DNA from: a virus
Taxonomy: Duplodnaviria; Heunggongvirae; Uroviricota; Caudoviricetes
Reading direction: 5' to 3' (one strand)
Virus record (IMG/VR): IMGVR_UViG_3300042940_001739
DNA length: 64,000 nucleotides
Shown here piece after piece: positions 8,301-36,897 of this stretch (the stretch's first letter is position 1; every line of letters starts with the position of its first letter). The notes beneath the pieces were generated by a model. The model did not search any database. It was not told the origin of the DNA and saw nothing but the letters and a program-made list of their open reading frames with translations. A program made the translations under genes and the position numbers.

Positions 8301-9439
8301 CAAATAACATTTCATTACTAGTAGGCTTAAAAAATAATTTAGACTACAATAAACATTTTTACGAAACAACGAGAACATTGTATCCAGATGTAGAAATATG
8401 TTTTGTAAGTTATGGATCGACTGACGGAACTCACGAATGGTTAGAAACATTATCAGATAACAATTTGAATTATTTTTATTCAACTGAAAATAAAACATTT
8501 TCTGATACATTTAATAAAGCAGCAGAGTTAGCAACAAATGATTATGTAGCATATCTTCATAATGATATTGTGTTAGCACCAGGATTTATTGAAAATTTAG
8601 AAAAACACGTATCTGAAAATAATGTAGTTGCATATACCACAATAGAGCCGCCTATATTCGCAGATCATGAGCGTCCTGGTAAAATTATATATGATTTAGG
8701 TGACTCGTTAGAGACGTTCGATAAAGATGCTTTATATGAATTTGTTAAACAAGAACAATTAAAGTATTTAGACAAAACAGAGCCAGGCATTACGTTTTTT
8801 ATGTGTATGCCTAGAGCTAAATTGTTAGATATTGGAGGTATGGATAATTTATTCAATCCAATGTTCTGTGAAGATGATGATTTAATTCGTCGTTGGAAAA
8901 TGTTAGGGATGAATTGTTTTACTGCATTAGATTCCATATGTTATCACTTTGTTAGCAAGACATCTAGATTTTCTGAAGAATACCAAAATAGAACTCAGCA
9001 GATTGAACTAGCTTCTAATAGAAATTATATTAGAAAATGGGGAACTAAATCAAATGCCCCTAAATATGATATTGCAATTCAAGTTAAAGGATGTAATATG
9101 CAATTATTAGAATTGTTAGAACCATATTGCAATAGAATTTTTATTGATGATGAAATGGAAGTTTTATTTTCATATTATTATGAAACTGAACAACCTAAAA
9201 CTAAGTTTGATTTAAAAACTAGAATCAACACTCAAGGATATGATGTTCCGAGTGATTATCATGATATAGTTGTTGAATGTAATAAAAATTCATTTGGACA
9301 ACAAGAATTTGTTTATATAGTTCAACTTCCAGAAATTATAGAACAAAGCGGAGAGTTAGGAACATTTAAACTAGGAAACCTAACAATTACAATCAATCAT
9401 TTAAACACATACGAAAAAAATCTCGTTAATATCGAATAA
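8297..9439 (+). CDS. Putative family-2 glycosyltransferase
   Basis: Beta-strand-rich N-terminal domain with YLHNDIVL and an EDDD acidic motif. ATGA overlap with the upstream gene. Confidence 0.4.
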   Translation: MTNNISLLVGLKNNLDYNKHFYETTRTLYPDVEICFVSYGSTDGTHEWLETLSDNNLNYFYSTENKTFSDTFNKAAELATNDYVAYLHNDIVLAPGFIENLEKHVSENNVVAYTTIEPPIFADHERPGKIIYDLGDSLETFDKDALYEFVKQEQLKYLDKTEPGITFFMCMPRAKLLDIGGMDNLFNPMFCEDDDLIRRWKMLGMNCFTALDSICYHFVSKTSRFSEEYQNRTQQIELASNRNYIRKWGTKSNAPKYDIAIQVKGCNMQLLELLEPYCNRIFIDDEMEVLFSYYYETEQPKTKFDLKTRINTQGYDVPSDYHDIVVECNKNSFGQQEFVYIVQLPEIIEQSGELGTFKLGNLTITINHLNTYEKNLVNIE

Positions 9440-9509
9440 AACCATATTTATAATAAAGTTACTCTTAATAACTAGTTACGCCATTAATAATTTATAAAAA
9501 AGGAAAAAA

Positions 9510-9776
9510 ATGGCAGGAAAAGGATTTAAGCAGATCTTTAAAAACTCGAACGATTACAATGAAAAAACTATCATTGGATTTATGTCTTTCGCAGTAATGA
9601 CATTAGCAATGATTGTTGATCTAGTTACTGGATACTTCGGTAATGAATTGAAACTTAATGAGTACATTTACAATTCATTTGTAGTGGTAACATTAGGTAG
9701 TCTGGGTATTGCAGGTTTAGAAAAATTTGCAGGAAAGAAATCAGCTAGTTCAGACGAAAATTCAGAGGAACTTTAA
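9510..9776 (+). CDS. Small membrane protein, holin candidate
   Basis: 88 aa with a hydrophobic helix (IIGFMSFAVMTLAMIVDLVTGYF), immediately upstream of the endolysin. Class III motif upstream. Confidence 0.3.
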   Translation: MAGKGFKQIFKNSNDYNEKTIIGFMSFAVMTLAMIVDLVTGYFGNELKLNEYIYNSFVVVTLGSLGIAGLEKFAGKKSASSDENSEEL

Positions 9777-9794
9777 TTATAATTTAGGAGTTTT

Positions 9795-10406
9795 ATGAGT
9801 TTAAAAAGTTTACAAGAACGAGCAGGCGTTGCCGCAGATGGAGCATTTGGCCCAGGCACGCTAAAAGCAGCAATGAGTTTGTTAAAGCTAACGCCAGTTA
9901 GAGCAGCACACTTCTTTGCACAAACAGCACACGAAACGGGTGGTTTCAAAGCATTTTCAGAAAATCTTAATTATTCAGCGCAAGGTCTTCAAGGGATCTT
10001 CGGGAAATACTTCCCAGGAACTTTAGAAGAGTCTTATGCTCGTAATCCAGAAAAGATTGCTAACAGAGTTTATGCGGATCGAATGGGTAATGGTAATGAA
10101 GCTTCAGGAGATGGGTGGAAGTATCGTGGTCGTGGTGCATTACAATTGACAGGTAAAGCTAATTATGAAGCATTTGCTAAATATTTAAACAAACCAGAAA
10201 TTGTAACTAATCCAGATTTAGTAGCAACAACTTATGCATTTGAATCAGCAATGTTTTTCTTTGACAAAAACAAATTGTGGGACATTTGCGATAAAGGAGT
10301 TAGCAAAGAAACAATCTTAGCACTTACAAAAAGAATCAACGGCGGCACGCACGGATTAGCTGACCGCGAAGAAAAAACATTCAAATATTTCGGATACGTA
10401 AAATAA
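9795..10406 (+). CDS. GH19-family endolysin (chitinase-like lysozyme)
   Basis: FFAQTAHETGGF is the GH19 catalytic signature. Confidence 0.8.
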   Translation: MSLKSLQERAGVAADGAFGPGTLKAAMSLLKLTPVRAAHFFAQTAHETGGFKAFSENLNYSAQGLQGIFGKYFPGTLEESYARNPEKIANRVYADRMGNGNEASGDGWKYRGRGALQLTGKANYEAFAKYLNKPEIVTNPDLVATTYAFESAMFFFDKNKLWDICDKGVSKETILALTKRINGGTHGLADREEKTFKYFGYVK

Positions 10407-10996
10407 TGGCATATACAAGAGAACAAATAGAAGCCGCTGTTAAAGCTAAAGGATATGTTTGGTTTGAAGGCGCAAAAGACTTCGATGTTAATATCATAGG
10501 AGTAAGAAATTCAAGTACAGCAAACAAAGTAACAAATGTATTTGATGATATAATGACTGTGTCGTACAAAGAAGGTGGAGAGTGGAAATTCGCTCAATGG
10601 CCTTGTACAACTGACCCAGGAACAAAAGGTGTTAAAGAATATCATAATGCTGCAGGTGTAGCTCGTTTAGTAGAAGGACAATATAGAGGTTCTCATACTT
10701 TAGGCTTGCACCAAGGTAAATATGAGGCTCTTAAACAAGCAAAACCAGTAAAAGTTTATCGTGATGCAAATCGTGATATGACTTATGACGAGAGCAAGAT
10801 TGCTGAAGGAGTATTTGGAATTAATATTCACAAAGCAGGGGCAGATTCAACATATGTTGAGAATTGGAGCGAAGGATGTCAAGTATTCAAGAAGTCAGCT
10901 GACTTTGAAGCATTTATGGTATTATGCCGTAAAGCTGCGGCAATCCATGGTAAATCATTTACTTATACATTAATCGAATCAGCGGATATTAAATAA
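10406..10996 (+). CDS. Hypothetical protein in lysis cassette (possible cell-wall hydrolase/peptidase)
   Basis: Position only: between the endolysin and a holin-like membrane protein. No confident motif. Confidence 0.3.
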   Translation: MAYTREQIEAAVKAKGYVWFEGAKDFDVNIIGVRNSSTANKVTNVFDDIMTVSYKEGGEWKFAQWPCTTDPGTKGVKEYHNAAGVARLVEGQYRGSHTLGLHQGKYEALKQAKPVKVYRDANRDMTYDESKIAEGVFGINIHKAGADSTYVENWSEGCQVFKKSADFEAFMVLCRKAAAIHGKSFTYTLIESADIK

Positions 10997-11418
10997 TGAA
11001 AACAATTCCACTAACAATATCACTTTTAGCAACAACGACCATGACATTCATCGGTACATATTTTTATAATCTTACAATGGATTACTCCGATCAGTACTTG
11101 GGGTTGATCGCTGTGGTGTTGTTTGATGGGTTTTTTGGAATTATAGCAGGAACAAAACGAGAGGGCTTTCAAACATGTAAGGCCCTCAAAGTTTTACGTA
11201 CAGCAGTTACATGGGTCATACTTTTAACGGTATTGTTATTAGTCGAAAAAGGTTTTAAAGGTACGTCGTGGTTGAGTGAAACAATATTAGTACCATTCAT
11301 GGTATTTCAGTTATTAAGCGCCTTGAAGAATGCTTCAATGGCTGGTTTTATTAAAACAGAAGTATTAAACCGCATCATGGATGCATTTGACAAACACAAA
11401 GGAGAAAGAACCGAGTGA
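10996..11418 (+). CDS. Multi-pass membrane protein, holin-like
   Basis: Three or four hydrophobic helices in 140 aa, adjacent to lysis genes. Confidence 0.4.
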   Translation: MKTIPLTISLLATTTMTFIGTYFYNLTMDYSDQYLGLIAVVLFDGFFGIIAGTKREGFQTCKALKVLRTAVTWVILLTVLLLVEKGFKGTSWLSETILVPFMVFQLLSALKNASMAGFIKTEVLNRIMDAFDKHKGERTE

Positions 11419-13337
11419 AACACGTAACAAGATTATTATTATTTTTATTAGCATTTATCCCAATGCTAAGTTTTGGACAATCTGGACCACCAGCTCCAAG
11501 TACTGGTATTTGGGCTATTATCGATACAACTTATACAGTTGGAACAACAACTCAAGGGGTAACAGAAGCTAAATTAACTTTAAAGAATACAACATTAACA
11601 AAATACACTGGTGTCCAGTTTAGAGTATTCTATGATAAAGTAGCATTCGTAAATGCATCAGTCGCACTATTAGGTACCACTACGAACCTAGATATGCAAC
11701 AAGTAGTAAATGCAGCAAATGGATATATCACAGTAACATTGGTATATACTGGTTCAAGCTCTACTTATACATTAGCTGATCAAGAAACATTTAAAATTAC
11801 ATTTACACACGCAGCACAATCGGTATTCAACAACTTGACGTCAATTGATGACTTAACTTGGACTGGAGTTCAAACATTCCCACAAGGAGCGGCAGCACAA
11901 GACGGATCAGACGTAACATTAGGATTACATTCATATGGTGGTGAATTCATATTCCAAAATTTTGATTATCACGGAACATTTACTAACGTTACAGGAACAC
12001 CTGCTAAAAACTTAACATTAGCATTAGAGAAACGTCCTGCAACGGGTGGTAGTTGGACACAAGTAAATACTTATACAACTGATATCAATGGCGACTTTGC
12101 AATTTCAGAACCAATTGATACAACTTATTGGGATGTTCGTTTAGCAATACAAGGCGATACAATGTTAGCAGGAAATGTTATTTCAACTTCGGATGCACAA
12201 CTTGTTAATCAATGGGTATTAGGAACATCAACAATGTCTGGATTTGATTATTATGCAGCAGATGTAAATGGATCTAACAATACTACAATAGCAGATGCAT
12301 ATGGTGTATTTGGTAGAGTATCAGGAAGATTCTCTGTATGGCCTAACAACGTACAAGACGTTAAATTCTTTACAGCAACAGAATATGCAACAATTAACGG
12401 TTCAGCAACCAACTACACTGCAACAATACCAGGCGCAACTAACTTTACATTTGACATTGTACCAGGAGCACCTGATTCAGTTGTATATTATGTAGCAGTA
12501 CCAGGTGATGCAAATGGAACAGGTTACCATATGGCACGTATTACTCCAATTGAAATTTTAATTGATCCAACACCTGGAGTTGAATCTCAAATTTACAATG
12601 TTATTGACAACAAAGTAGAATATGATTTTGCAACTTCACAAATTGAGGTTAATGTACCAAGATTAACAGTTCAAGAAGGAAACGTAGTTAATATACCAGT
12701 AAAAGTGTTTACAAATGGCATTGATTTGAATGCATTGCAATTTGGATTGAAATATGATCCAGAACTATTATCATTTAGTGGTGTTTATGCAACTTCTAAT
12801 GCAACAGAGTGGTTAACTTATATTAATCCTAATGATGGACAAGTTGATTGGGGAGGCTATGACGTCACTGATAATAAAAGTCCATTAAAAGACGGCGACG
12901 AGGTTATTACAATGCAATTTGTAGCATTAAAACCACAAGCACAATGGGATAACAGTCCTTTGTCAACAACTGACAAATTTGCAGGTAGAGCAGGAACATC
13001 TAAAGACTTAACAATTACTCCAACTAATGGAATTATCCAAGTAGTTAAAATGAGTGACAATGTTATTTCAATTGATAACAATAGTATGCAAATTGTACCT
13101 AACCCAGTTAAAGATGTTGTAACAATTGTATTCAATGTATTAGAACCAACAAATGCATCGTTAACAATTAGAGATTTACAAGGAAGATTATTAATGGATA
13201 TTGTCTCAGGTCAAATACCACAAGGACAATTTTCATATCAAGCTAATTTAGGTAAATTAGCAACAGGTTTATATATTGCAACACTTTCAATGGAAAATGG
13301 AGTGTTTATAGCAGAAAAATTAGTAAAACAGGATTAA
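11415..13337 (+). CDS. Secreted protein with T9SS type-A C-terminal sorting domain (Por_Secre_tail)
   Basis: N-terminal signal peptide (LLLFLLAFIPMLSFGQ) and a C-terminal ~80 aa matching the T9SS CTD (NPVKDVVTIVFNV...LTIRDLQGRLL...GLYIATLSMENGVFIAEKLVKQD). Confidence 0.65.
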   Translation: MKHVTRLLLFLLAFIPMLSFGQSGPPAPSTGIWAIIDTTYTVGTTTQGVTEAKLTLKNTTLTKYTGVQFRVFYDKVAFVNASVALLGTTTNLDMQQVVNAANGYITVTLVYTGSSSTYTLADQETFKITFTHAAQSVFNNLTSIDDLTWTGVQTFPQGAAAQDGSDVTLGLHSYGGEFIFQNFDYHGTFTNVTGTPAKNLTLALEKRPATGGSWTQVNTYTTDINGDFAISEPIDTTYWDVRLAIQGDTMLAGNVISTSDAQLVNQWVLGTSTMSGFDYYAADVNGSNNTTIADAYGVFGRVSGRFSVWPNNVQDVKFFTATEYATINGSATNYTATIPGATNFTFDIVPGAPDSVVYYVAVPGDANGTGYHMARITPIEILIDPTPGVESQIYNVIDNKVEYDFATSQIEVNVPRLTVQEGNVVNIPVKVFTNGIDLNALQFGLKYDPELLSFSGVYATSNATEWLTYINPNDGQVDWGGYDVTDNKSPLKDGDEVITMQFVALKPQAQWDNSPLSTTDKFAGRAGTSKDLTITPTNGIIQVVKMSDNVISIDNNSMQIVPNPVKDVVTIVFNVLEPTNASLTIRDLQGRLLMDIVSGQIPQGQFSYQANLGKLATGLYIATLSMENGVFIAEKLVKQD

Positions 13338-13338
13338 T

Positions 13339-13668
13339 ATGTCAGAAGAAACAAACAACGACGGAACATGGTCAGGAATGAAAAAGACCGTTATAGGAAC
13401 ATTAACTACAGTTATCACAGGTGGTGGTGTTTGGTTATCAACAATACTATTTGGCGGGCACGAAGAGCCTAAAGAAGAAACAAAAACAGAACAACCAGCA
13501 GCAGCTGCTCCGGTAATTGTTAACGTTCAACAAAACCAAGAAAACAAACAAAAATCTGAATTCAATGGATCGCACGGCGGAACTGTAATTTATGAGAATA
13601 AGTTACCAAAAAGTGAAGAAATTAAACCAGCTAAACCAGCAGAAAAACCACAAGAAGAATCATGGTAA
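13339..13668 (+). CDS. Small membrane-anchored protein with Pro/Lys/Glu-rich tail
   Basis: TM helix VIGTLTTVITGGGVWLSTILFGG, then a PKEETKTEQPAAAAP-type low-complexity tail. Confidence 0.3.
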   Translation: MSEETNNDGTWSGMKKTVIGTLTTVITGGGVWLSTILFGGHEEPKEETKTEQPAAAAPVIVNVQQNQENKQKSEFNGSHGGTVIYENKLPKSEEIKPAKPAEKPQEESW

Positions 13669-14375
13669 GATTTTTAACTATATTATTTTTATTCCCTTTA
13701 ACACTCCTTGCTCAACCAGTAGGGAGTGTTAAAACTGAACAATACCAAGCAGACTTTGAAAAGAAGCAAAGCATTGAGGTTGTTGCTAATTATACTGATA
13801 CGATTAAAATTCCTATTCAATTATTAAAAATTGGATTCAATGATGAATTGTATGAGATGTACCCAGAACTAAAACAAAAGCGAGTAGGTTTAGGTGTAAC
13901 TAACATTGTTATTGAGTTTTTAGAATATACGGGTAGATTTACATTCACTGAAGAAAAAGAAGAAATTAAACAGCGAATGATTGCCCAGGATAAAGCATCA
14001 GATAAGGGCATCTCGTCAAATAAAATTGAAGTTAAAGGCAATGTGGTGCTAGCAAAGTACTTTGTGTATATCGAAGTATATGACTTCTCAGTTTCAGAAG
14101 ATGATGTAGTTAAGTTGAATGGTGTAAGCACAATTACACAAACAACTCAATTAGGATTGCAAATTAAATTCGTAAATGCAGAGACTGGCGAAGTAATCGT
14201 TGGATCTGGATTAGGAGAAGCAAGTACAGTTAAAACTGAATCAATATTAGGTGATATATCAGATGATGTTAAATTCAATCAATCAACAATTGGAACATCA
14301 ACTAAAAAGGCACTAGAAACAGCAGCTTCACGAATTATAACAAGATTAATTGCTAAAGGCGTATTTAAGTCTTAA
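13662..14375 (+). CDS. Secreted hypothetical protein
   Basis: Signal peptide FLTILFLFPLTLLAQP. Confidence 0.4.
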   Translation: MVRFLTILFLFPLTLLAQPVGSVKTEQYQADFEKKQSIEVVANYTDTIKIPIQLLKIGFNDELYEMYPELKQKRVGLGVTNIVIEFLEYTGRFTFTEEKEEIKQRMIAQDKASDKGISSNKIEVKGNVVLAKYFVYIEVYDFSVSEDDVVKLNGVSTITQTTQLGLQIKFVNAETGEVIVGSGLGEASTVKTESILGDISDDVKFNQSTIGTSTKKALETAASRIITRLIAKGVFKS

Positions 14376-14425
14376 GCGGTTGGATATTAACAAATTAATC
14401 ATTATATTATATAAGGAAATGTATC

Positions 14426-16036
14426 GTGAAATATATCATAGCATTTGTACTAGGGTTAGTAGCATTTAACCTCAACGCACAGAACTATGTTTATTCTTAT
14501 ACAGACCCTTGCACAGGTGTAATAAAAACTATTACAGTTCCCATTAATGGATCGATATCAGTTTCTTATTACGGTGAAGTTGGAACATTTAGTGGACAAG
14601 ACTTTCAGAATGGAGTTTTTGAAACTTGGGCAAATCAAAAGTTGTCTCAATATCAAAACATTTCTCCTTGTTCACAAATTGTCGGAGTTGCAACAACGGT
14701 TGGTGTGACTCAGTCGACTGCTATTAATACTTTGAGTATTTTAAACTCATTGTCAGCATTAGCAGATATGGCAGGCGCAACTAACATGTTAGGGGGTGCA
14801 GTAAACACAGTAAATGGGAGCTCTAGCTCTGAAAGTAATAATAACGAAAACGAAGAACAAAATGGAAATAATTCTAATAGTAGTGGGACTAGCAGTAGTG
14901 GTAATAACGGCACTAGTTCTAGCAACGTGGGAGGATCGACGAACACGCAAGTATCAGGCACAACGCAAAGCACGGGAACAAGTACAACTGCGTCAGGAAC
15001 GCAAACAACGGGAAGCGGATCAAGTAATCCTAGCTCCGAACCCACAAGCAGCTCTTCTAGTAGCACAACTACAGGAACAACTTCACAAGAAGGAAGCACA
15101 GGAAGTGAAACTACAACAGGAAGCACAGGAAGCGAAACTAGTTCAGGAACTACAAGCACTGAACCAACAAGTACAGGAAGTGACCCAGGAAGTCAAAGTG
15201 GTACTGGAGGGAACGGAGAAAATGGCACCAGCGGTGGAAATGGTAGCAGTGGAAGCACTAGTGAAACCCAAACGCAAGAAACGCCAACCACGCAAGAAGA
15301 AACCAGCAAAACAAATATAACCGGAGGTAGTACAAATACCATTCGTGGTTCAACTACAACAACAGGCTCACCTAAAAGCAAAAATGGGAATGGAGCTCCA
15401 GCAGTAATTGCATCTGCAGATTTTGTAGGATTTAATTTTAGAGATTCAGAAGTAACTACCGGTTTAAAAGCTACTGGTGGTTATACTGCTTTACGATGGG
15501 ATGGTAAACGTAGTTGGGGAGGATTATTAGATTATACATCAGCTTTGAAAGGCCCTAATGCAACGGGATTCTATGCGTGGATCAAACCAGGGCGTGTCAC
15601 TTTATTATCCGGCACTTTAACAGTAGGTTTCGAAGGACGGGGAACAATATACGGTACAATCTCTGGAGGTCAAATGATGTCCTTTAAGAAGGTTAAAAAC
15701 TTAAAGGTAGTTTATATGGCTACGGTATCATATGGTGCTGTATATCAAACACCATTCTTAGGTACAGCTGTAATTGCTGGAGGGATGTATGATTTCAAAA
15801 TAGGAAAACGAATTGACATCAAATTAATGGACCTTATGGTTTATTCTCCATATGTAAGTTATTATAATGATGTTGTAATGAAATCTCCTTATGTAATGAT
15901 TCCTAGCATCGGAACAAATATTAGCATAACAAGAAAATTCAAATTTAATATTAATGCAGGTGGAGCTTGGTCATTAGGTCAATCTACTTTAAACTATACA
16001 GTAACATGCGGAACAAGATTATTAGTTGGGCAATAG
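14426..16036 (+). CDS. Secreted protein with ~170-aa Ser/Thr/Gly/Asn-rich low-complexity linker and beta-rich C-terminal domain
   Basis: GTG start after a class II motif. Signal peptide IIAFVLGLVAFNLNAQ. Mucin-like STG tract encoded by 14800-15330. Confidence 0.5.
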   Translation: MKYIIAFVLGLVAFNLNAQNYVYSYTDPCTGVIKTITVPINGSISVSYYGEVGTFSGQDFQNGVFETWANQKLSQYQNISPCSQIVGVATTVGVTQSTAINTLSILNSLSALADMAGATNMLGGAVNTVNGSSSSESNNNENEEQNGNNSNSSGTSSSGNNGTSSSNVGGSTNTQVSGTTQSTGTSTTASGTQTTGSGSSNPSSEPTSSSSSSTTTGTTSQEGSTGSETTTGSTGSETSSGTTSTEPTSTGSDPGSQSGTGGNGENGTSGGNGSSGSTSETQTQETPTTQEETSKTNITGGSTNTIRGSTTTTGSPKSKNGNGAPAVIASADFVGFNFRDSEVTTGLKATGGYTALRWDGKRSWGGLLDYTSALKGPNATGFYAWIKPGRVTLLSGTLTVGFEGRGTIYGTISGGQMMSFKKVKNLKVVYMATVSYGAVYQTPFLGTAVIAGGMYDFKIGKRIDIKLMDLMVYSPYVSYYNDVVMKSPYVMIPSIGTNISITRKFKFNINAGGAWSLGQSTLNYTVTCGTRLLVGQ

Positions 16037-17715
16037 TATTGCTGTCAGCATTTTCACTTAATGCACAAAGTGTTATCGCCCCAGGAGCTACATCATATAA
16101 CCAAAACACATCAAATCAAAGTGCAACAGGATTTTCGGTAACAGGTTTTACCCCGGCAGCTACTTTATTGGTTACTGTTGGACTAGTTAATCCACCAGCT
16201 GGAACAACTCTTAGATTTTCAACTACAGCAGGCGTTTCTGCAAGTACAGGATATACATTAACATCTAATTTTACTAGAATTAGTTTCACAGGAACTCAAG
16301 CAAATGTTAACACAGTATTAGCATCATTACAAGTAAACACCGGATCAACACCAGGAAATCTATATATAGCAGTAACTGCAACTGAAAATCCTACAGGCTA
16401 TTTTTATTTACCATCAAATGGTCACTTTTATAAACCGGTAGCTAGCGGCACAACATATACTAACGCAAAAGCAACAGCATTAAATACAACATTTAAAGGA
16501 CAGCAAGGTTATTTAGTAACTATCACATCACCTGATGAAGATGCCTTTATTTATAATAACGTTCCGCAATCTCAAATATGGTTTGCGTTATCAGATGCAG
16601 CACAAGAAGGATATTGGAGAATAGATGCCGGCCCAGAAAATGGAACTTTAATTAAAACAGCGAATGGACAGTATGCCGGAAACATTGCTAGTCAATATAA
16701 CAACTGGGCCGGAGGAGAACCTAACAACTCAGGCGGCGAACATTATGCGGTAACTAAATGGAACGGCTCTCAATGGAACGACTTACCTAATAGTTTCTCT
16801 TGTCCTTATGTAATTGAATATGGAACGTGGTCAGATCCAGGAAATCAAACATTTACGAATTTCTATACAGGATTCGTTACTCATCAGATTGCATGTAGCC
16901 CGGCAACATCGCCAACAGCACCAACCGGAACAGATGGATCTAGATCATTAGCTGGAACAGTTTCATTGTCAGCAGCTGCACCTGCAGGTAGCACAGTAGA
17001 TTGGTATGCTAATGCAATGGGTGGCAATGTTATATCGGGAGGATTTGGAACATTATCATTTACAACTCCTAGCATTTCAGCAACAACAACTTATTATGTT
17101 CAGGCTAGAAATTCAACAACGGGTTGTGTTAGTTCATCAAGAACTGCAGTAGTAGCAACAGTAAATTACCCAACACCATTTATTCATTCAGGATTCGTTT
17201 ATGGGTCTGAAGGAGTTGGTATATCTAATATACCAGTAAAGTTGTATAGAAAATTAAATGCAGAAACTAATTATACATTACACGGAACATATACAACAAC
17301 AAGCAACGGGCAATTTAATATAACAACTACTTTAGATATTGCATCGTATAATTTTCAAATAGTAATTGATAATTTAACAATTGCAAATCCAACTGTTAGT
17401 GATGCTCAATTTTTCAATCAAAAGATTTTATCACAAGGTTTTAGTTCTAAAGACTATTATAGATTGAATACTAATAACAATGCTATATTAACCATTGCAG
17501 ATGTTTATGAAGTATATCAAAAAACTTATAGTATACCATGGAATAATGGAGTTCCAACATATAGATTATTTAATCAATCAGAATGGAATATAATCAACTC
17601 ATCAACAACTGATTTAAGAACAACTTACCCAGGACTTCAAAGTTTAACAATACAAAGTCCTACTAATAATGGAACATCAAATATTTATTTAATAAGGACA
17701 GGATATGCGAATTAA
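16006..17715 (+). CDS. Secreted C-type-lectin-domain protein (possible receptor-binding/adhesin)
   Basis: Signal peptide MRNKIISWAIVLLSAFSLNAQS. CTLD signature WFALSD..EGYWRIDAG...YNNWAGGEPNNSGGEHYAVTKWNGSQWNDLPNSFSCPYVIEYG. The track start of 15967 is likely too early. Confidence 0.6.
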   Translation: MRNKIISWAIVLLSAFSLNAQSVIAPGATSYNQNTSNQSATGFSVTGFTPAATLLVTVGLVNPPAGTTLRFSTTAGVSASTGYTLTSNFTRISFTGTQANVNTVLASLQVNTGSTPGNLYIAVTATENPTGYFYLPSNGHFYKPVASGTTYTNAKATALNTTFKGQQGYLVTITSPDEDAFIYNNVPQSQIWFALSDAAQEGYWRIDAGPENGTLIKTANGQYAGNIASQYNNWAGGEPNNSGGEHYAVTKWNGSQWNDLPNSFSCPYVIEYGTWSDPGNQTFTNFYTGFVTHQIACSPATSPTAPTGTDGSRSLAGTVSLSAAAPAGSTVDWYANAMGGNVISGGFGTLSFTTPSISATTTYYVQARNSTTGCVSSSRTAVVATVNYPTPFIHSGFVYGSEGVGISNIPVKLYRKLNAETNYTLHGTYTTTSNGQFNITTTLDIASYNFQIVIDNLTIANPTVSDAQFFNQKILSQGFSSKDYYRLNTNNNAILTIADVYEVYQKTYSIPWNNGVPTYRLFNQSEWNIINSSTTDLRTTYPGLQSLTIQSPTNNGTSNIYLIRTGYAN

Positions 17716-18154
17716 ATTATTACTTTTATTATTTTTACCATTATTTTCAATTGCACAAGAATGTGTGTTTGTTGATACAGTATATGTAACAGCAAAACTT
17801 AGAGAATTAGGAACAAAAGATATTCGATTTGGAATCAAACAAATTGTTGAAGAAGAGGTATCACAACGTTATTGTTTAGCAGAACCAGGAGCTGCAATTG
17901 CAGTTGAAGTATTTTATTTTGGAATACCTAAACAAACAATACGTATCATCGGAGTTGAAAATACAAAAACTATAACACAAGTAGGAGTTCGTATTCATTT
18001 TAAAGGAATGAAGTATGAAGGAGTTGGCGAGTCTGAAACTGAAATACAAGCTATACTAATTGAAGTTAAAGAAGGTTCAATTCCTTTTGACAAAATGACG
18101 GTTCGTAACGCACTTAAAAAAGCAATACATGAAGCAGTTACTAAAATGCCTTAG
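17705..18154 (+). CDS. Secreted hypothetical protein
   Basis: Signal peptide LLLLLFLPLFSIAQE. Confidence 0.4.
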   Translation: MRIKLLLLLFLPLFSIAQECVFVDTVYVTAKLRELGTKDIRFGIKQIVEEEVSQRYCLAEPGAAIAVEVFYFGIPKQTIRIIGVENTKTITQVGVRIHFKGMKYEGVGESETEIQAILIEVKEGSIPFDKMTVRNALKKAIHEAVTKMP

Positions 18155-18575
18155 CATTATACTACCACTAACACTTTCAGCTCAACTTAAAATTGATGAT
18201 GTTGGTGATGGTTGGAAAGGATACATTCAACAATCTTTAGAATTGATAAAACAAACAGATTCAACTAAATATAAACAATTGGTTGAAACATGCAATCATA
18301 TTGGTTATTGGAACGGAGCATACTCAACTACAGAAGATTCAACAATACTAATATCAAATCTAGAAATGCGTCGTGGGAACATACACGATCTTGCAGCAGC
18401 TCTAATTCACGAGTCAATGCACTTATATATCATACAACAACGAATCACATTATCTACTAAACAAGAAGAAACAATTTGTTATTTATATGAGTTAGAGTTT
18501 CTTTCAAAAATTCCTAATGTTGAGCCATGGCTTATTCAACATGTGCATCGTCAATTAGATGCATTGCACAAATAA
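18129..18575 (+). CDS. Small secreted protein with HExxH zinc-metallopeptidase motif
   Basis: Signal peptide LKCLSIILPLTLSAQ, then AALIHESMHLYI (HExxH). Confidence 0.4.
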   Translation: MKQLLKCLSIILPLTLSAQLKIDDVGDGWKGYIQQSLELIKQTDSTKYKQLVETCNHIGYWNGAYSTTEDSTILISNLEMRRGNIHDLAAALIHESMHLYIIQQRITLSTKQEETICYLYELEFLSKIPNVEPWLIQHVHRQLDALHK

Positions 18576-18611
18576 TTTGTATTTACGGATTATTTTCATT
18601 ATAATATCAGT

Positions 18612-18962
18612 ATGAACTATAAATACATTATAACTGCCTATATCATGTTTATGGTAGGCCAAGCGGTTGTCTGGGTACAAACAAATGGACCTATCTTATG
18701 GCCATGGGCTAAACAATGGAAATTTCCATTAATGCTTTTAGGGATTCCTATTACATGGCTGTTTATGGAAGCAACTAACTATGTTGTTAAAGGATTCGAT
18801 GGCGCTTTTTGGCCCGGAAGATTTATGTCATTTACTGCAGGAATTCTTATTTTTACTGTTATGACGTACGTTTTTAAATCAGAAGGAATAAATTTAAAGA
18901 CCATGGTATCGTTAGCATTAGCATTTGCATTAATTTTAGTACAGCTCTTTTGGAAGTCTTGA
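18612..18962 (+). CDS. Multi-pass membrane protein
   Basis: Four hydrophobic segments in 116 aa. Class II motif upstream. Confidence 0.4.
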   Translation: MNYKYIITAYIMFMVGQAVVWVQTNGPILWPWAKQWKFPLMLLGIPITWLFMEATNYVVKGFDGAFWPGRFMSFTAGILIFTVMTYVFKSEGINLKTMVSLALAFALILVQLFWKS

Positions 18963-18974
18963 TATTTATAATAG

Positions 18975-20330
18975 ATGATAACGGAATACGAAACACAAAA
19001 AACATTGAATCCTATACTATGGGATAGTGATCAATTACATTCTAATCTTCGTGTTGGGTTCATGAAAATTGCAAAAGCATTTTATGATTTCCTAGAAGTT
19101 GAAGCTGATATATTAGACGTAATAATTATTGGTAGTAGTGCTAATTATAATTGGACTAAACATAGTGATATTGATTTACATGTTGTAATCAATTATTTAG
19201 AAGTTGGCGATAATTTATATCTAGTAAAAAATTATATGCACGCCAAAAAAAGTATTTGGAATATAAATCATCCACTAAAATTAAAAGGCATGAACATTGA
19301 GCTTTATGCACAAGATTTAAACGAAGAGTTACATTCTTCAGTCGGAGTATATTCATTACTTCATAATAAATGGATAACAAAGCCATCTGCGGAACAAATT
19401 TCTATAGATGATTCTACAATTCAAACAAAGTCAGAACCATATGAATATGAAATTGATTCTTTAAGTATTGATGATCCTAGAATCGAACAAAAAATACAAA
19501 ACTTAAAGCAGCGATTGCGTCATCTTCGACAAACAGGACTTGACACAGCTGGGGAATATTCAATTGAAAATATGGCTTACAAACATCTACGTAATAATGG
19601 ATACTTAGAACGTTTACAATGGTTAGAAAAAAAGGTTGCAAATAGTCAACTAGCAATAGAAAATGTTGTAAATGAACTAGATATGAGCTCAGTAGCTAAT
19701 AAAACAAAAGATCAAGTAAAGAAGTTTGCTGATGCAATGAAAACTGAGACTAATGAGACAAAAATGGCTTTGAATATGCTTCTTCAACATCTTAATGGGA
19801 AAAAACTTAATGATGTTGAATGGAAGTGGGTTAGAAGTCAAATGGCTGATGTAGTTAAACTATTAGGGTTAACAACAATGGCGGTTGCCCCCGGAGGCAG
19901 CCTTGTAGCATTATTAGCTAAAGTACTTAAAATAGACAAGCACATGCTTCCTAAATCATTTTTAAAACAAGATGAGCAAGAAATAACAGAAGCATTGGAA
20001 TTACACATAAAAGGCGTAAAGAAACTAGAATCTGCAGATTGGGATAACATTGTTACAAAAACGGGAGCAATCACCGATCCCATGGGACAATGGAAACATC
20101 CAGGTAAATGCACAATGATTCCTACCATTAATGGTGCAATTACAATGCGCAACGTGTCTTATCCGGTATTAGGGATAGATGATACCGGTCATGCACTAAT
20201 GATGCACCCAGAACATGATTATCAGTTCCCAGGCCGCAATGTATTCGAAATACCACATACAGCACAATATCAAACAATGATAATGCAGTTACAAAATTCA
20301 CTTAATCAAGGTAGTATAGATGCAAAGTAA
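18975..20330 (+). CDS. Nucleotidyltransferase-domain protein (Pol-beta superfamily NTase) with large C-terminal extension
   Basis: IIGSSANYNWTKHSDIDLHVV equals the hG[GS]x9-13Dh[DE]h NTase motif. Confidence 0.5.
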   Translation: MITEYETQKTLNPILWDSDQLHSNLRVGFMKIAKAFYDFLEVEADILDVIIIGSSANYNWTKHSDIDLHVVINYLEVGDNLYLVKNYMHAKKSIWNINHPLKLKGMNIELYAQDLNEELHSSVGVYSLLHNKWITKPSAEQISIDDSTIQTKSEPYEYEIDSLSIDDPRIEQKIQNLKQRLRHLRQTGLDTAGEYSIENMAYKHLRNNGYLERLQWLEKKVANSQLAIENVVNELDMSSVANKTKDQVKKFADAMKTETNETKMALNMLLQHLNGKKLNDVEWKWVRSQMADVVKLLGLTTMAVAPGGSLVALLAKVLKIDKHMLPKSFLKQDEQEITEALELHIKGVKKLESADWDNIVTKTGAITDPMGQWKHPGKCTMIPTINGAITMRNVSYPVLGIDDTGHALMMHPEHDYQFPGRNVFEIPHTAQYQTMIMQLQNSLNQGSIDAK

Positions 20331-21103: not shown

Positions 21104-21108
21104 TTAAA

Positions 21109-21741: not shown

Positions 21742-21751
21742 AGGTATTTTT

Positions 21752-34845: not shown

Positions 34846-36897
34846 ATGAAACATATACTATTAGCATTAACATTAATGCAATCCATCTTCAGCTACACGC
34901 AGTGTGTAGGAGTACAGTCAGCAACAATTACACCGCCAGCTCCTGCAGGAGGCTATCTACCAAACACTCAAGTAACTGTGTGTTACACGATGGTAGGTTG
35001 GCCTGGATTAAGTGTTGGTGCCAATTGGTTGGAAGGATTTTCTATTACTGCAGGCCCAGGCTGGAATGCACCACAACCAGTTACCGCACCAGCAGATTGT
35101 AATGGGGGAACAACCACAGGATGGTTATGGATGAACTCAGTTACTTCAACAGCAACGGGACAGACTGCAGGGCCAGGATATTTTTATGAAGGACCTACCG
35201 GGCCACAAGACAACAACCCAGGCAATGATTGGGGAGATCAAGGCAATTGTACTTGGACTATGTGTTTCTCAGTTACAACGAAGCAATCATGTTTACCACT
35301 TAACCTCAACCTAGCAGTAACAGCAGGAGCAGATGGAACGTGGGGTTCGTGGTCTAATTCAAGTTGCCCAACAACACCTTACTCAGTATACACAGGAACA
35401 CTCAATGTACCAATCGTAACGGTTGCTAGCACAGTAAAGAAAGACACATGTGGTTTAGGATTAGGATCAATACTAGTAGTACCTAGTTCAACAACATATA
35501 CTGGACCATATACCTATACATGGACTCCTAATGTAGGAAACACAGCATTCATAGGAGGTTTAACGGCAGGAACATACTCAGTTCAAATTGGATATAACAA
35601 CGGATGCATTAAGTCAGCAACATATGTAGTAGGCAATGTTCAACCAACGTATGCAGCAACATCAACCGTTGTATCATGTTATGGAGATGCAACAGGCACA
35701 GCTACCGCAACAATGACACCACCAATTGGAAACATATCTTATAATTGGTCAAACACACAAACAACGCAAACTGCAACGGGACTAGCAGCAGGACCATATA
35801 CATGTACTATTAGCAATACATTGGGATGTACTAGCACAGTACCAGTAACTATAACACAGAACCCTCAACTGCTAATACAGAACTTGTCATTGACTAATGC
35901 AACCTGCGCAGATTCAGATGCTATAATTACATATAACGCAGTAGGAGGCGTCTCTCCTTATCAATATGCACTTAACGGTGTAGGTTCAACAAATAATGAA
36001 GATTCATTAGCAGGAGGCAACTATATTATATATGTACAAGACAATCTAGGATGCAACACTGATAGCACAGTAACATTGTTATCACCAACCGTTATTACTC
36101 CTAGCATTTCTCCTAATGTAACATTGCAATGTACTCCAGGGACATTTATATTTACAAACACATCGACTCCAGCAGTTAACATAGACAGTACTATAGTAAA
36201 TTGGGGTGATGGCAACATAGACACAACCACAACGTACGCACCTATACAGCACGTATACAACACGCCGGGACTTTGGGATATCATTGTATCAACGATTTCT
36301 GATTATGGTTGTGTGTATAGCGATACATTGTATACGTTGGTTGAAACAACTCAGCCGCCAACGGCTCAATTTACTATACAACCTAACCCAACTACTGTAT
36401 ATAATACACACGTGACTTGCGATGATTGGTCGTCAGGAGTGCCTGTGCAATGGTATTGGTCAGCTCCAGGTGCTATACCGATGTCAAGCACACAACTTGA
36501 GCCATGGTTCATGTTCCCAGAAGTAGCCGGCGAACATTACATTACTTTGACAGTAACAGATGCTTATGGTTGTTGGGACACAATAACACACAAGTTCATT
36601 ATAGAAGATGCCATGTTGATATTCGTCCCTAATACATTTACTCCGGGTGGAGCAGATGAATGGAACAATGTATTTCGATGGTCGATACTAGGAATCAATG
36701 AATCAGAATTCTATATGGAAATTTGGAATCGTTGGGGACAAATAATCTGGGAGTCACGAGACCCACACTCATATTGGGATGGAACATGTAATGGGCAACT
36801 AGTACCTGATGGTTCATACAGCTGGGTTATACGAGCAACTAATAAATTAGATGCAGGTAAAAGATCTTTTATAGGAACAATTAACGTTATAAAATAA
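34846..36897 (+). CDS. Secreted repeat-rich protein with T9SS type-B (gliding-motility-associated) C-terminal domain
   Basis: Signal peptide MKHILLALTLMQSIFSYTQ. C-terminus FVPNTFTPGGADEWNNVF...MEIWNRWGQIIWESRD...WDGTCNGQLVPDGSYSWVIRA matches the CHU_C / type-B CTD. Class III motif abuts the ATG. Confidence 0.65.
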   Translation: MKHILLALTLMQSIFSYTQCVGVQSATITPPAPAGGYLPNTQVTVCYTMVGWPGLSVGANWLEGFSITAGPGWNAPQPVTAPADCNGGTTTGWLWMNSVTSTATGQTAGPGYFYEGPTGPQDNNPGNDWGDQGNCTWTMCFSVTTKQSCLPLNLNLAVTAGADGTWGSWSNSSCPTTPYSVYTGTLNVPIVTVASTVKKDTCGLGLGSILVVPSSTTYTGPYTYTWTPNVGNTAFIGGLTAGTYSVQIGYNNGCIKSATYVVGNVQPTYAATSTVVSCYGDATGTATATMTPPIGNISYNWSNTQTTQTATGLAAGPYTCTISNTLGCTSTVPVTITQNPQLLIQNLSLTNATCADSDAIITYNAVGGVSPYQYALNGVGSTNNEDSLAGGNYIIYVQDNLGCNTDSTVTLLSPTVITPSISPNVTLQCTPGTFIFTNTSTPAVNIDSTIVNWGDGNIDTTTTYAPIQHVYNTPGLWDIIVSTISDYGCVYSDTLYTLVETTQPPTAQFTIQPNPTTVYNTHVTCDDWSSGVPVQWYWSAPGAIPMSSTQLEPWFMFPEVAGEHYITLTVTDAYGCWDTITHKFIIEDAMLIFVPNTFTPGGADEWNNVFRWSILGINESEFYMEIWNRWGQIIWESRDPHSYWDGTCNGQLVPDGSYSWVIRATNKLDAGKRSFIGTINVIK

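What the first reader, a model, noticed from the sequence alone, without database searches (positions are those of the whole stretch)
11415..18575. Phage-encoded secretome block: T9SS-CTD protein, Ser/Thr-rich mucin-like protein, C-type lectin protein and small HExxH protein, all with signal peptides
Six consecutive genes encode proteins with Sec signal peptides. One ends in a type-A T9SS sorting domain (11415..13337). One carries a canonical C-type lectin domain (WND / GEPNN / C motifs, 16006..17715). One has a ~170-aa STGN low-complexity linker. One is a 148-aa HExxH protein. A second CTD protein of type B is at 34846..36897. T9SS C-terminal domains are a hallmark of Bacteroidota cargo. Their presence on phage genes implies either that the phage hijacks the host T9SS to export factors during infection (surface remodelling, exclusion, biofilm or competitor interaction), or that these Ig-like folds have been co-opted as virion fibre or decoration domains. 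C-type lectin folds are also the scaffold of phage receptor-binding proteins diversified by diversity-generating retroelements (DGRs); no reverse transcriptase is in this window.
Basis: partly seen in the sequence, partly recalled or inferred. Interest (0 to 1): 0.7.

Follow-up and report, generated by a model that had tools for sequence, protein, structure and literature searches.

The report
Conserved phage cell-envelope gene module
A large phage of Flavobacterium-type bacteria carries, fused to its lysis genes, a conserved seven-gene kit of exported proteins whose function is untested but which looks built to re-equip the infected cell's envelope and surface.

Summary
Window 11415-18575 encodes seven tightly packed genes. 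Six have signal-peptide-like N-termini and one (13339-13668) is a membrane-anchored protein. Profile hits above curated cut-offs confirm the T9SS type-A sorting domain plus cohesin, the C-type lectin with EPN/WND motifs, and the type-B sorting domain at 34846-36897. The HExxH motif is invariant across homologues.

The block is a conserved, phage-restricted module. The same genes in nearly the same order occur in 80 fetched viral contigs (up to 308 kb). They also occur in the cultured Flavobacterium phage immuto. A GH19 endolysin lies within 8 kb in 55 of 81 loci.

New assignments, all from low-confidence structure models or indirect profile evidence:
- Two unannotated genes appear to be paralogues with a CsgG/LpoB-type fold.
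- The lectin family and the cohesin protein share a dockerin-like module.

I found no DGR repeat and no YxDD-bearing ORF in the window.

Best reading: a phage-built surface-display and envelope kit that uses the host T9SS. Main rival: an outer-membrane lysis accessory. Function is inferred, not shown. Phage-encoded T9SS cargo was already reported in 2020; I found no report of the multi-gene module.

The parts
9510..9776 (+). p88: small two-TM, holin-like membrane protein. It is linked to the module in other phages.
   Evidence: The sequence shows two hydrophobic segments and a charged tail. Homologues lie between the O2 and O3 genes in about 17 loci, or next to the endolysin in others.
9795..10406 (+). 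GH19-type endolysin.
   Evidence: phrog_181 endolysin, E 2.6e-64. Glyco_hydro_19, 36.6 bits. A homologue lies within 8 kb of the module in 55 of 81 loci.
10406..10996 (+). phrog_3000 protein, probably a second cell-wall enzyme.
   Evidence: phrog_3000 E 8.7e-41 and phrog_33083 endolysin E 3.2e-13. Found next to the module in 30 of 81 loci.
10996..11418 (+). Holin. Its stop codon overlaps the O1 start (GTGA).
   Evidence: Phage_holin_4_1, 28.1 bits against a cut-off of 22.2. Overlap seen.
11415..13337 (+). O1: signal peptide, N-terminal cohesin-like region (my reading of the sequence pattern), 'module X' (beta-sandwich plus dockerin-like segment, residues 174-345), cohesin (410-543), T9SS type-A C-terminal sorting domain (561-637).
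   Evidence: Domain hits. Family counts: Por_Secre_tail 27/29, Cohesin 23/29, Dockerin_1 9/29. Module X is shared with O5 at 31% identity, E 4e-13.
13339..13668 (+). O2: bitopic inner-membrane protein. It has an acidic N-terminus, a Gly-rich TM segment, a Pro/Gln/Lys/Glu-rich periplasmic tail, and a near-invariant C-terminal (E/D)(S/P)W.
   Evidence: Comparison of about 55 distinct homologues. Present in 77 of 81 loci. The C-terminal motif is kept even where the gene does not overlap O3.
13662..14375 (+). O3: exported protein with a CsgG/LpoB/PelC-type fold, the most conserved gene of the module. Many homologues have a lipobox-like signal peptide; this copy does not.
14378..14414 (+). Promoter-like motif GGTTGGAT-N19-TATTATATA in the O3-O4 gap.
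   Evidence: Seven matches in the window (six on the + strand) against 0.04 expected. The six + strand copies all lie just upstream of genes.
14426..16036 (+). O4: signal peptide, conserved N-domain (20-125, two conserved Cys), S/T/G/N linker of about 200 aa, conserved TNITGGST motif, and a C-terminal outer-membrane beta-barrel of about 12 strands (about 325-536).
16006..17715 (+). O5: signal peptide, N-terminal domain, C-type lectin domain (EPN and WND motifs), Ig_7 domain, and C-terminal module X with a dockerin-like segment. It has no T9SS sorting domain.
   Evidence: Family counts: Lectin_C 23/30, Laminin_G_3 10/30, GEVED 4/30, Dockerin_1 6/30. Motifs and the conserved C-terminus.
17705..18154 (+). 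O6: small exported paralogue of O3 with an invariant Cys just after the signal peptide.
   Evidence: hhalign of the O3 profile against the O6 profile: probability 94.9%, E 4.5e-8. Alignment A2. Present in 67 of 81 loci.
18129..18575 (+). O7: small exported HExxH protein, probably a zincin-type metallopeptidase.
   Evidence: H94, E95, H98, E113, E114 and E121 are invariant. Weak zincin hits in family members: SprT-like in 9 of 22, best E 5.8e-4. Present in 66 of 81 loci, inverted upstream in one clade.
34846..36897 (+). Separate SprB-repeat/PKD protein with a T9SS type-B (CHU_C) sorting domain. It is not part of the conserved module.
   Evidence: CHU_C 45.5 bits, SprB 32.3 bits. Flanked by thymidylate synthase and a 4HBT thioesterase, with no PorP/SprF gene beside it. 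A homologue was seen near the module in only one locus.

Best explanation
**What it is.** The block is a conserved, phage-specific cell-envelope module, packed head-to-tail with the lysis genes and in the same orientation. It places phage proteins in every layer of a Bacteroidota host's envelope:
- O2 is anchored in the inner membrane with an extended periplasmic tail.
- O3 and its short paralogue O6 are CsgG/LpoB-fold proteins of the periplasm or inner face of the outer membrane.
- O4 is an autotransporter-like outer-membrane barrel carrying a long S/T-rich tether and a small N-terminal domain.
- O1 is exported by the host's type IX secretion system through its type-A sorting domain and displays cohesin domains.
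- O5 proteins carry variable lectin heads (C-type lectin, ConA-like, GEVED) on a constant dockerin-like module that O1 also has.
- O7 is a small zinc protease.

**Most likely mechanism (inferred).** O1 acts as a surface scaffold and O5 lectins dock onto it. The infected cell and its debris are thereby coated with glycan-binding proteins. That coat would mask or alter surface receptors, limiting superinfection and loss of progeny on debris, or would change how the cell sticks to its surroundings. O2, O3, O4 and O6 would be the phage's own envelope anchor or assembly parts.

**Shown versus inferred.** Shown: the domain content, the conservation, the restriction to phages and the linkage to lysis genes. 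Inferred: export, docking and biological purpose.
For: - **Domain identities.** Most hits pass curated cut-offs and recur across the families: Por_Secre_tail 27/29, Cohesin 23/29, Lectin_C 23/30.
- **Variable heads on a constant module.** The O5 family has changing lectin-type heads on a conserved C-terminal module. O1 carries the same module. Dockerin_1 is detected at E<0.01 in 9/29 O1 and 6/30 O5 homologues. This is the logic of cohesin-dockerin assemblies.
- **Conserved gene order.** O1-O2-O3-O4-(O5,O6)-O7 recurs in the 80 fetched viral contigs (112 relatives detected) and in phage immuto.
- **Phage-restricted.** Only 4 hits, all MAG contigs, among genomes of 185,579 species. Only immuto among 50,697 phage records.
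- **Machinery conserved, binding parts variable.** O3 is 69-97% identical and O2 44-84%, whereas O5 is 27-78%.
- **Precedent.** Phage-encoded T9SS type-A cargo proposed to hijack the host system: PMC7468147.
Against: - No experiment shows that any of these proteins is exported or displayed.
- Dockerin similarity in the window copies is below the Pfam cut-off (16-17 bits against 22.9). No cohesin-dockerin pairing was modelled.
- O5 has no sorting domain, so its route across the outer membrane is unexplained.
- The persistent linkage to endolysin and holin genes, and a holin-like gene between O2 and O3 in many contigs, would fit a lysis role as well or better.
- Both structure models have low confidence (mean pLDDT 55 and 44).
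- The S/T linker of O4 contains no D(S/T)(A/I/L/V/M/T) motif, the motif I recall for the general Bacteroidota O-glycosylation system. A 'mucin-like' glycan coat is therefore unsupported.
Confidence: 0.4

Rival explanations
1. **Outer-membrane lysis accessory.** The core genes form a complex spanning the envelope that completes lysis of a Bacteroidota host. That is the step done by spanins or disruptin in other Gram-negative phages. O2 would be the inner-membrane anchor, O3/O6 the outer-membrane-associated lipoprotein-like proteins, O4 the barrel and O7 the protease. Together they would tether the membranes and then destabilise or perforate the outer membrane once the endolysin has cut the wall.
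For: - Holin, O1, O2 and O3 overlap or abut: GTGA, a 1-nt gap, ATGGTAA.
- A GH19 endolysin lies within 8 kb in 55 of 81 loci despite rearrangements and strand flips.
- The holin-like p88 gene sits between O2 and O3 in about 17 loci.
- O2 has the topology of an i-spanin, and many O3 homologues have a lipobox-like signal peptide.
- The O2 and O3 genes overlap as many spanin pairs do.
- Nothing in the block matches a known spanin family in PHROGs. Only some flavobacterial phages have a predicted spanin (PMC8776804).
Against: - The O2 periplasmic tail is rich in Pro and Gly and only about 70 residues long. It is not a coiled coil.
- O3 is a 215-aa globular protein that is 70-80% conserved, unlike small proline-rich o-spanins.
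- The window copy of O3 and the immuto copy lack the lipid-anchor Cys.
- A T9SS-exported cohesin scaffold is part of the widest conserved core, and a lectin is present in most loci. Neither has an obvious role in lysis.
- In immuto the module lies about 6 kb from the endolysin, next to replication genes.
Confidence: 0.25
2. **Phage-encoded export conduit.** An O3 ring (like the CsgG nonamer or PelC dodecamer) together with the O4 barrel (like FapF or PelB) forms a channel. It would export a polymer or unfolded protein, for example O5, an amyloid-like fibre, or a polysaccharide made by the glycosyltransferase cluster at 2567-9439.
For: - O5 lacks any sorting domain yet looks like a surface protein.
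- Eight sugar-modifying genes lie directly upstream in this phage.
Against: - There are no curlin or Fap-like repeat subunits in the module.
- The CsgG Pfam model does not hit O3 itself. Profile comparison with E. coli CsgG gives 2.5% probability.
- CsgG-like domains also occur as non-channel periplasmic domains fused to kinases and caspases.
- The one glycosyltransferase gene tested (8297-9439) has no homologue next to the module in any of the 81 other loci.
- The best O4 matches are autotransporter translocators. Those carry their own passenger rather than serving as general channels.
Confidence: 0.15
3. **Virion components.** The proteins are fibres or decoration proteins whose Ig-like and lectin folds bind the host or mucus.
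For: - Ig-like, PKD and lectin domains are common in phage fibres and decoration proteins.
- The type-B gene has a weak match to a PHROG 'virion structural protein' over 60 residues.
Against: - Six of the seven products have signal-peptide-like N-termini.
- One appears to be an outer-membrane barrel. One carries a T9SS export tag. Others have lipobox-like leaders.
- No module protein matches a structural PHROG.
- The block sits with lysis genes, not with capsid or tail genes.
Confidence: 0.03

Closest known systems
Phage-encoded T9SS cargo of 'Cryophage' (Bellas et al. 2020, Nat Commun, PMC7468147)
   Same: Both are phage genes for secreted proteins ending in a T9SS type-A sorting domain. In both cases hijacking of the Bacteroidota host's secretion system is proposed, and the cargo is variable.
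   Different: In Cryophage they are single enzymes (endoglucanase, GH39, PA14 protein) in variable genomic islands. Here the cargo is a cohesin scaffold embedded in a fixed multi-gene module. That module also holds membrane, periplasmic and outer-membrane parts and is tied to the lysis cassette.
Cohesin-dockerin surface assemblies (cellulosome-type scaffoldins and non-cellulosomal cohesin/dockerin modules)
   Same: A protein with cohesin domains and a cell-surface anchoring signal sits alongside proteins that have variable functional heads on a constant dockerin-like module.
   Different: It is encoded by a virus. It is anchored by a T9SS sorting domain rather than SLH or sortase. The payload is lectins rather than glycoside hydrolases. 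The dockerin match is sub-threshold in this window, and the interaction is untested.
Curli secretion channel CsgG and its fold relatives (LpoB, PelC, FlgT, LptE, GNA1162)
   Same: The O3 model's best structural matches are this fold class. Distant O3 relatives score above the Pfam CsgG cut-off. Many O3 homologues have lipoprotein-like leaders.
   Different: O3 itself gives no Pfam CsgG hit. There are no csgA/B/E/F partners. Membrane hairpins and ring assembly are unknown. The family is phage-only: 255 clusters among 1.84 billion representatives.
Type Va autotransporters (NalP, Hbp, EstA, AIDA-I) and the FapF amyloid channel
   Different: There is no Pfam autotransporter hit. A 200-residue S/T/G/N linker replaces the usual beta-helix passenger. 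The pore helix is not established. It is unknown whether the N-domain faces outward (autotransporter-like) or into the periplasm (FapF-like).
Two-component spanins (Rz/Rz1) and receptor-masking lipoproteins of virulent phages (T5 Llp; from my own knowledge)
   Same: These are periplasm- or outer-membrane-directed phage proteins. Spanin genes lie with the lysis genes, and O2-O3 show an overlapping gene pair of membrane-anchored protein plus lipoprotein-like protein.
   Different: There is no coiled-coil i-spanin domain and no small proline-rich o-spanin. The module is about 7 kb with seven genes, not one or two small genes.

Membership tests
T9SS type-A cargo (O1) | C-terminal sorting domain matching PF18962 / TIGR04183 at the extreme C-terminus | tested here: met
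   PF18962 34.6 bits (cut-off 27) at residues 561-637 of 640. TIGR04183 37.8 bits (cut-off 23). Present in 27 of 29 homologues.
T9SS type-A cargo (O1) | N-terminal Sec signal peptide | tested here: met
   MKHVTRLLLFLLAFIPMLSFGQ has a positive n-region and a hydrophobic core of 2.93 on my heuristic. SignalP was not available.
T9SS type-A cargo (O1) | Host has a T9SS; export and tag removal depend on it | not testable with these tools
   The host is inferred to be Bacteroidota: immuto infects Flavobacterium, and the MAG hits are Flavobacterium, Sediminibacterium and an uncultured Bacteroidetes bacterium. Export is not shown.
T9SS type-B cargo (34846-36897) | CHU_C / TIGR04131 C-terminal domain | tested here: met
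   PF13585 45.5 bits (cut-off 27). TIGR04131 34.8 bits against a cut-off of 35, which is marginal.
T9SS type-B cargo (34846-36897) | Adjacent PorP/SprF-like outer-membrane partner gene (usual for type-B cargo; from my own knowledge) | tested here: not met
   The flanking genes are thymidylate synthase and a 4HBT thioesterase. The rest of the genome was not searched.
C-type lectin domain (O5) | Pfam Lectin_C match plus Ca/sugar-binding EPN and WND motifs | tested here: met
   27.2 bits (cut-off 22.6). GEPNN and WND are present. Both motifs occur in 23 of 30 family members. The canonical four-Cys pattern is incomplete.
Cohesin-dockerin system | Cohesin domain | tested here: met
   PF00963 34.6 bits (cut-off 24.1) at O1 residues 410-543. 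Present in 23 of 29 homologues.
Cohesin-dockerin system | Dockerin module with paired Ca-binding loop-helix repeats | tested here: inconclusive
   Dockerin_1 scores 16-17.4 bits, below the 22.9 cut-off, in O1 and has no reported hit in O5. It reaches E<0.01 in 9/29 O1 and 6/30 O5 homologues. Only the second loop looks canonical (DVNGSNNTTIAD).
Cohesin-dockerin system | Specific cohesin-dockerin binding | not testable with these tools
   No complex prediction or binding assay was available.
Curli channel CsgG | Match to Pfam CsgG (PF03783) | tested here: inconclusive
Curli channel CsgG | Lipoprotein signal with lipobox Cys | tested here: not met
   The window copy (…LTLLAQPVG) and immuto gp017 have no Cys. 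Many other homologues have LFSC or LSSC.
Curli channel CsgG | Operon partners csgA/B (curlin repeats) and csgE/F | tested here: not met
   None of the module proteins hits these families. O6 is an O3 paralogue, not CsgE or CsgF.
Type Va autotransporter (O4) | 12-stranded C-terminal barrel | tested here: met
Type Va autotransporter (O4) | Match to the Pfam autotransporter beta-domain, and a linker helix inside the pore | tested here: not met
   No Pfam hit for whole O4 or for residues 309-536. The only long helix in the model (81-117) is more than 200 residues from the barrel and has pLDDT below 50.
Two-component spanin | i-spanin: N-terminal TM segment plus periplasmic coiled-coil; o-spanin: small lipoprotein | tested here: not met
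   O2 has the TM topology, but its tail is Pro/Gly/Gln-rich and short. O3 is a 215-aa globular protein without a lipobox in this copy. There are no PHROG spanin hits.
Diversity-generating retroelement target | Reverse transcriptase plus template/variable repeat pair at the 3' end of the lectin-fold gene | tested here: not met
   No direct repeat of at least 40 nt involves 16006-17715. No YxDD-bearing ORF of at least 200 aa apart from two FIDD matches at 7581-8300 and 8297-9439. Only this 64-kb window was examined.

The most novel reading that the evidence does not exclude
Large phages of Bacteroidota carry their own trans-envelope apparatus, with no counterpart in cellular genomes. It comprises an inner-membrane tether (O2), CsgG-fold ring proteins (O3, O6) and an autotransporter-like barrel (O4). 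This apparatus works together with the hijacked host T9SS. It would either assemble a virus-designed lectin coat (a cohesin-dockerin 'adhesin-some') on the infected cell or perform the missing outer-membrane step of lysis in this phylum. Either case would be a new class of phage-encoded envelope machine.
Probability: 0.3. Interest if true: 0.85.

Novelty: new variant of a known kind. Interest (0 to 1): 0.66.

Why it matters
- **Abundance.** Flavobacteria and relatives are major degraders of algal and particulate carbon in lakes and seas, and their large phages are abundant. This module has thousands of sequence variants in public metagenomes (4,762 O3 relatives). Yet almost every gene in it is annotated 'hypothetical'.
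- **If it is a surface-display kit.** It would show that virulent phages can reprogramme the adhesive surface of their host by combining their own membrane parts with the host's type IX secretion system. That bears on superinfection, progeny survival, aggregation and particle attachment.
- **If it is a lysis device.** It would fill the unknown outer-membrane step of lysis for Bacteroidota phages.
- **Testability.** A cultured carrier exists (phage immuto on Flavobacterium sp. LMO8), so both ideas can be tested directly.
- **Annotation.** The results give names for seven gene families that recur in more than 100 viral contigs.

Tried and rejected
- **Near-identical DNA search.** Megablast of 11000-19000 against 50,697 phage records found no match.
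- **PHROGs on the block.** Nothing useful for O1-O6.
- **PADLOC defence models.** No hit for any module protein.
- **NCBIfam.** Only the two sorting domains.
- **Sequence-profile searches of PDB.** Nothing for O3. Only insignificant hits for O6 (ribosomal protein S1) and O7.
- **hhalign of the O3 profile against E. coli CsgG.** 2.5% probability. CsgG membership therefore could not be claimed directly.
- **PorP/SprF idea.** I thought the gene before the type-B cargo might be PorP/SprF. It is thymidylate synthase.
- **Sigma-70 promoter and terminator scans of 8000-22500.** Counts equal shuffled expectation and are uninformative for a Bacteroidota phage. The Bacteroidota -7 motif TAnnTTTG is not found upstream of any module gene.
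- **DGR.** No template/variable repeat and no RT-like ORF.
- **Mucin-like O-glycosylation of the O4 linker.** No D(S/T)(A/I/L/V/M/T) sites.
- **Bacterial origin of the module.** Only four MAG contigs among genomes of 185,579 species. Two are large contigs of 254 and 112 kb carrying the module beside an endolysin; I suspect they are phage contigs binned with their hosts.
- **Virion-component reading.** Rejected because of the export signals.

Full report
**1. Setting**

All long ORFs in the window lie on the + strand, and GC is about 35%. Phage markers are plentiful:
- a GH19 endolysin (phrog_181, E 2.6e-64), a second lysis-type protein (phrog_3000) and a holin (PF05105)
- a phage GroEL
- a MoxR/CobS-like ATPase with a CobT-like partner
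- an RNA ligase and glycosyltransferases

The exact O3 protein is found on public contigs up to 164,031 bp. The window is therefore part of a large phage genome of roughly 164 kb. There is no near-identical record among 50,697 GenBank phages.

**2.

The seven ORFs lie at the stated coordinates. Independent gene calls on public assemblies give identical products of 640, 109, 237, 536, 569, 149 and 148 aa. I call them O1 to O7.

| Gene | Coordinates | Main evidence |
|---|---|---|
| O1 | 11415-13337 | Por_Secre_tail 34.6 bits (cut-off 27), TIGR04183 37.8 bits (cut-off 23), Cohesin 34.6 bits (cut-off 24.1) |
| O4 | 14426-16036 | 198-residue stretch that is 79% S/T/G/N |
| O5 | 16006-17715 | Lectin_C 27.2 bits (cut-off 22.6), Ig_7 62 bits, GEPNN and WND motifs |
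| O7 | 18129-18575 | HExxH invariant in 22 homologues, with conserved Glu residues 15-23 positions downstream; weak zincin hits in family members |
| type-B gene | 34846-36897 | CHU_C 45.5 bits (cut-off 27), SprB repeats, PKD |

One correction is needed. O2 (13339-13668) has no cleavable signal peptide. It has an acidic N-terminus followed by a Gly-rich transmembrane segment. A simple signal-peptide heuristic run over the whole window shows that such N-termini cluster in this block.

**3. It is one conserved module, not a loose set of genes**

- A tblastn search of phage records with O1 found only Flavobacterium phage vB_FspM_immuto (160 kb, host Flavobacterium sp. LMO8).
- The immuto region gp013-gp019 holds the same genes: lectin, O1 split into two genes, O2 (71% identity), O3 (68%), O4 (27%) and O6 (28%). 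They are annotated only as 'lectin C-type', 'cohesin' or hypothetical.
- A scan of IMG/VR with O3 found 112 relatives. The 80 loci fetched come from contigs of up to 308 kb.
- tblastn of all window genes against the 81 loci gave these counts: O1 80, O2 77, O3 81, O4 78, O5 77, O6 67, O7 66.
- The order is O1-O2-O3-O4-(O5,O6)-O7. In one clade O7 is flipped upstream.
- Divergent versions on Sediminibacterium and Flavobacterium MAG contigs keep an O1-like gene, O2, O3, a holin-like gene and an endolysin. The Sediminibacterium contig also keeps O4 and the Flavobacterium contig an O6-like gene.

The family is essentially confined to phages:
- An O3 profile found only four loci in genomes of 185,579 species, all MAG contigs.
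- It found only 255 clusters among 1.84 billion representative proteins.
- In GenBank phages only immuto carries O3 or the O4 barrel.
- In metagenomes it is common, with 4,762 O3 relatives and 1,204 O4 relatives.

**4. Linkage to lysis**

- In the window, the endolysin, phrog_3000, holin, O1, O2 and O3 genes overlap or are one base apart.
- O4 to O7 overlap by 11-31 bases. The only real gap is 50 nt between O3 and O4.
- No credible terminator lies inside 9510-18575.
- Across the other loci a GH19 endolysin lies within 8 kb in 55 of 81, on either side and either strand. phrog_3000 does so in 30.
- A small two-TM holin-like gene (window 9510-9776) lies between O2 and O3 in about 17 loci.
- In immuto the endolysin is about 6 kb away.

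**5. What the unannotated genes are**

*O3*
- It is 69-97% identical across loci, the most conserved member of the module.
- Many homologues have a lipobox-like LFSC or LSSC in the leader. The window copy does not.
- Its AlphaFold model is only moderately confident (pLDDT 55, pTM 0.53).
- Pfam CsgG does not hit O3 directly. Profile comparison with E. coli CsgG is not significant.
- However, five of ten distant O3-profile hits score 24.5-45.8 bits on Pfam CsgG against a cut-off of 20.8. Some of these are fused to Ser/Thr kinases; two other tested hits, which carry no CsgG match, are fused to caspase domains.
- JGI independently labels the exact protein CsgG.
- I conclude that O3 belongs to the CsgG/LpoB superfamily. 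Whether it forms a channel is open.

*O6*
- It is a short paralogue of O3 (hhalign probability 94.9%, E 4.5e-8).

*O4*
- It has a conserved N-domain with two conserved Cys, a hypervariable linker, an invariant TNITGGST motif and a strongly conserved C-terminal 210 residues.
- The model is poor overall (pLDDT 44). It nevertheless gives 11-12 consecutive antiparallel strands at 348-533 with pLDDT 55-69.
- O4 is therefore best described as an autotransporter-like outer-membrane barrel. It is not simply a mucin-like protein.
- The linker has none of the D(S/T)(A/I/L/V/M/T) sites that I recall for general Bacteroidota O-glycosylation.

*O2*
- It is a bitopic protein whose Pro/Gln/Lys/Glu-rich tail ends in a near-invariant (E/D)(S/P)W.
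- That ending is kept even where the gene does not overlap O3.

**6. A cohesin-dockerin-like logic**

- O1 residues 174-345 and O5 residues 388-548 are homologous (31% identity, E 4e-13).
- This 'module X' is a beta-sandwich followed by a dockerin-like segment. Examples are SDAQLVNQWVLG…DVNGSNNTTIAD in O1 and DVNNDSRFTVSD in immuto gp013.
- Dockerin_1 is sub-threshold in the window. It reaches E<0.01 in 9/29 O1 and 6/30 O5 homologues.
- The O5 family keeps module X and its C-terminus (…YLIRTGYAN) while swapping heads: Lectin_C in 23/30, ConA-like Laminin_G_3 in 10/30, GEVED in 4/30, Ig_7 in 4/30.
- Variable binding heads on a constant docking module, next to a cohesin protein with a surface-export tag, is the design of scaffoldin systems. 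The interaction itself is an inference.

Other loci add further exported genes to the module. One is a signal-peptide-bearing DNA/RNA non-specific endonuclease (75.8 bits), which is also immuto gp012.

**7. Explanations**

*Best explanation (0.40).* A phage-built envelope and surface-display kit. O1 goes out through the host T9SS. Lectin subunits dock on it. O2, O3, O4 and O6 provide phage-made anchoring or assembly parts. The likely purpose is masking or altering the infected cell's surface.

*Main rival (0.25).* The conserved core is the missing outer-membrane step of lysis. The gene linkage favours this. The non-coiled O2 tail, the large globular O3 and the universal T9SS cargo argue against a spanin-like mechanism.

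*Third reading (0.15).* An O3 ring plus the O4 barrel act as an export conduit, as in CsgG, PelBC or FapF. It lacks a visible substrate.

*Virion components (0.03).* These are effectively excluded by the export signals.

*DGR.* Diversification of the lectin by a DGR is not supported in this window.

**8. Comparison with what is known**

- Phage-encoded T9SS type-A cargo, with the hijack idea, was published for 'Cryophage' in 2020 (PMC7468147).
- I found no paper describing this module, a phage CsgG-like protein or a phage autotransporter-like barrel in Bacteroidota phages. The library searched is incomplete.
- Flavobacterial phage surveys report few recognisable spanins (PMC8776804).

**9. Verdict**

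The feature is real, conserved and abundant. It is a largely unannotated multi-gene module, and its parts are new variants of known folds combined in a way not described before. Function is inferred. The structure-based assignments rest on low-confidence models, though the O4 barrel match is strong. Interest 0.66.

Noticed in passing
window 912, 14378, 26538, 41653, 43041, 50602 (+ strand): Promoter-like motif GGTTGGAT-N(~19)-TATTATATA(G/A). It has seven matches (six on the + strand) against 0.04 expected by chance. The six + strand copies all sit just upstream of gene starts, one of them in the O3-O4 gap. It is probably a phage-specific promoter class.
   Followed up: partly
window 50940-57000: A second repeated intergenic element, AAAAGATTAGGAT-N17-CTTATCTTTAT, has 10 copies spaced 200-1100 nt apart among small ORFs. 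It looks like another promoter class, perhaps for early genes.
   Followed up: no
window 2567-9439: Directly upstream of the lysis genes lies a run of eight sugar-modifying genes: two GT4, two GT2, a GT34-like gene, two methyltransferases and one unknown. The one gene tested (8297-9439) has no homologue next to the module in other phage contigs. The target (host surface glycan, phage DNA or a phage protein) is unknown.
   Followed up: partly
window 57816-62187: A tandem array of at least six paralogous genes shares the N-terminus MI(R/K)LK.LL.E. They start at 57816, 58307, 58744, 59371, 59937 and 60808. The region has raised GC (0.41-0.44 against about 0.35 elsewhere).
   Followed up: no
window 18975-20330: A 451-aa protein has a nucleotidyltransferase-like N-terminal half (phrog_36119, E 3.9e-45). 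Relatives at 32-38% identity occur in Prevotella Lak megaphages, Synechococcus phages and Maribacter phages. It is not conserved next to the module.
   Followed up: partly
window 34846-36897: An SprB-repeat/PKD protein with a type-B T9SS sorting domain sits between thymidylate synthase and a thioesterase, with no PorP/SprF-type partner gene beside it. From my own knowledge, SprB is a gliding adhesin and a receptor for several Flavobacterium phages. A phage copy could therefore interfere with receptors.
   Followed up: partly
L012 11417-12004, L032 11768-12358, L004 11191-11772, L001 7149-7727 (immuto gp012): Many related phages insert a signal-peptide-bearing DNA/RNA non-specific endonuclease (Endonuclease_NS, 75.8 bits in the L012 copy) into or beside the module. 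The window's phage lacks it.
   Followed up: partly
window 25299-30893 and 22294-22563: The phage carries a MoxR/CobS-like AAA ATPase with a CobT-like partner, a full-length GroEL (phrog_5725, E 1e-177) and a ClpS-like gene. These are chaperone or protease-adaptor genes typical of large phages.
   Followed up: no
L082 (CAIWBA010000291.1, 254 kb) and L085 (JBBAJS010000010.1, 112 kb): Contigs filed in Bacteroidetes and Sediminibacterium MAGs carry the module next to an endolysin; the Sediminibacterium contig also carries a holin-like gene. They are probably phage genomes binned with their hosts, which gives a host clue beyond Flavobacterium.
   Followed up: partly
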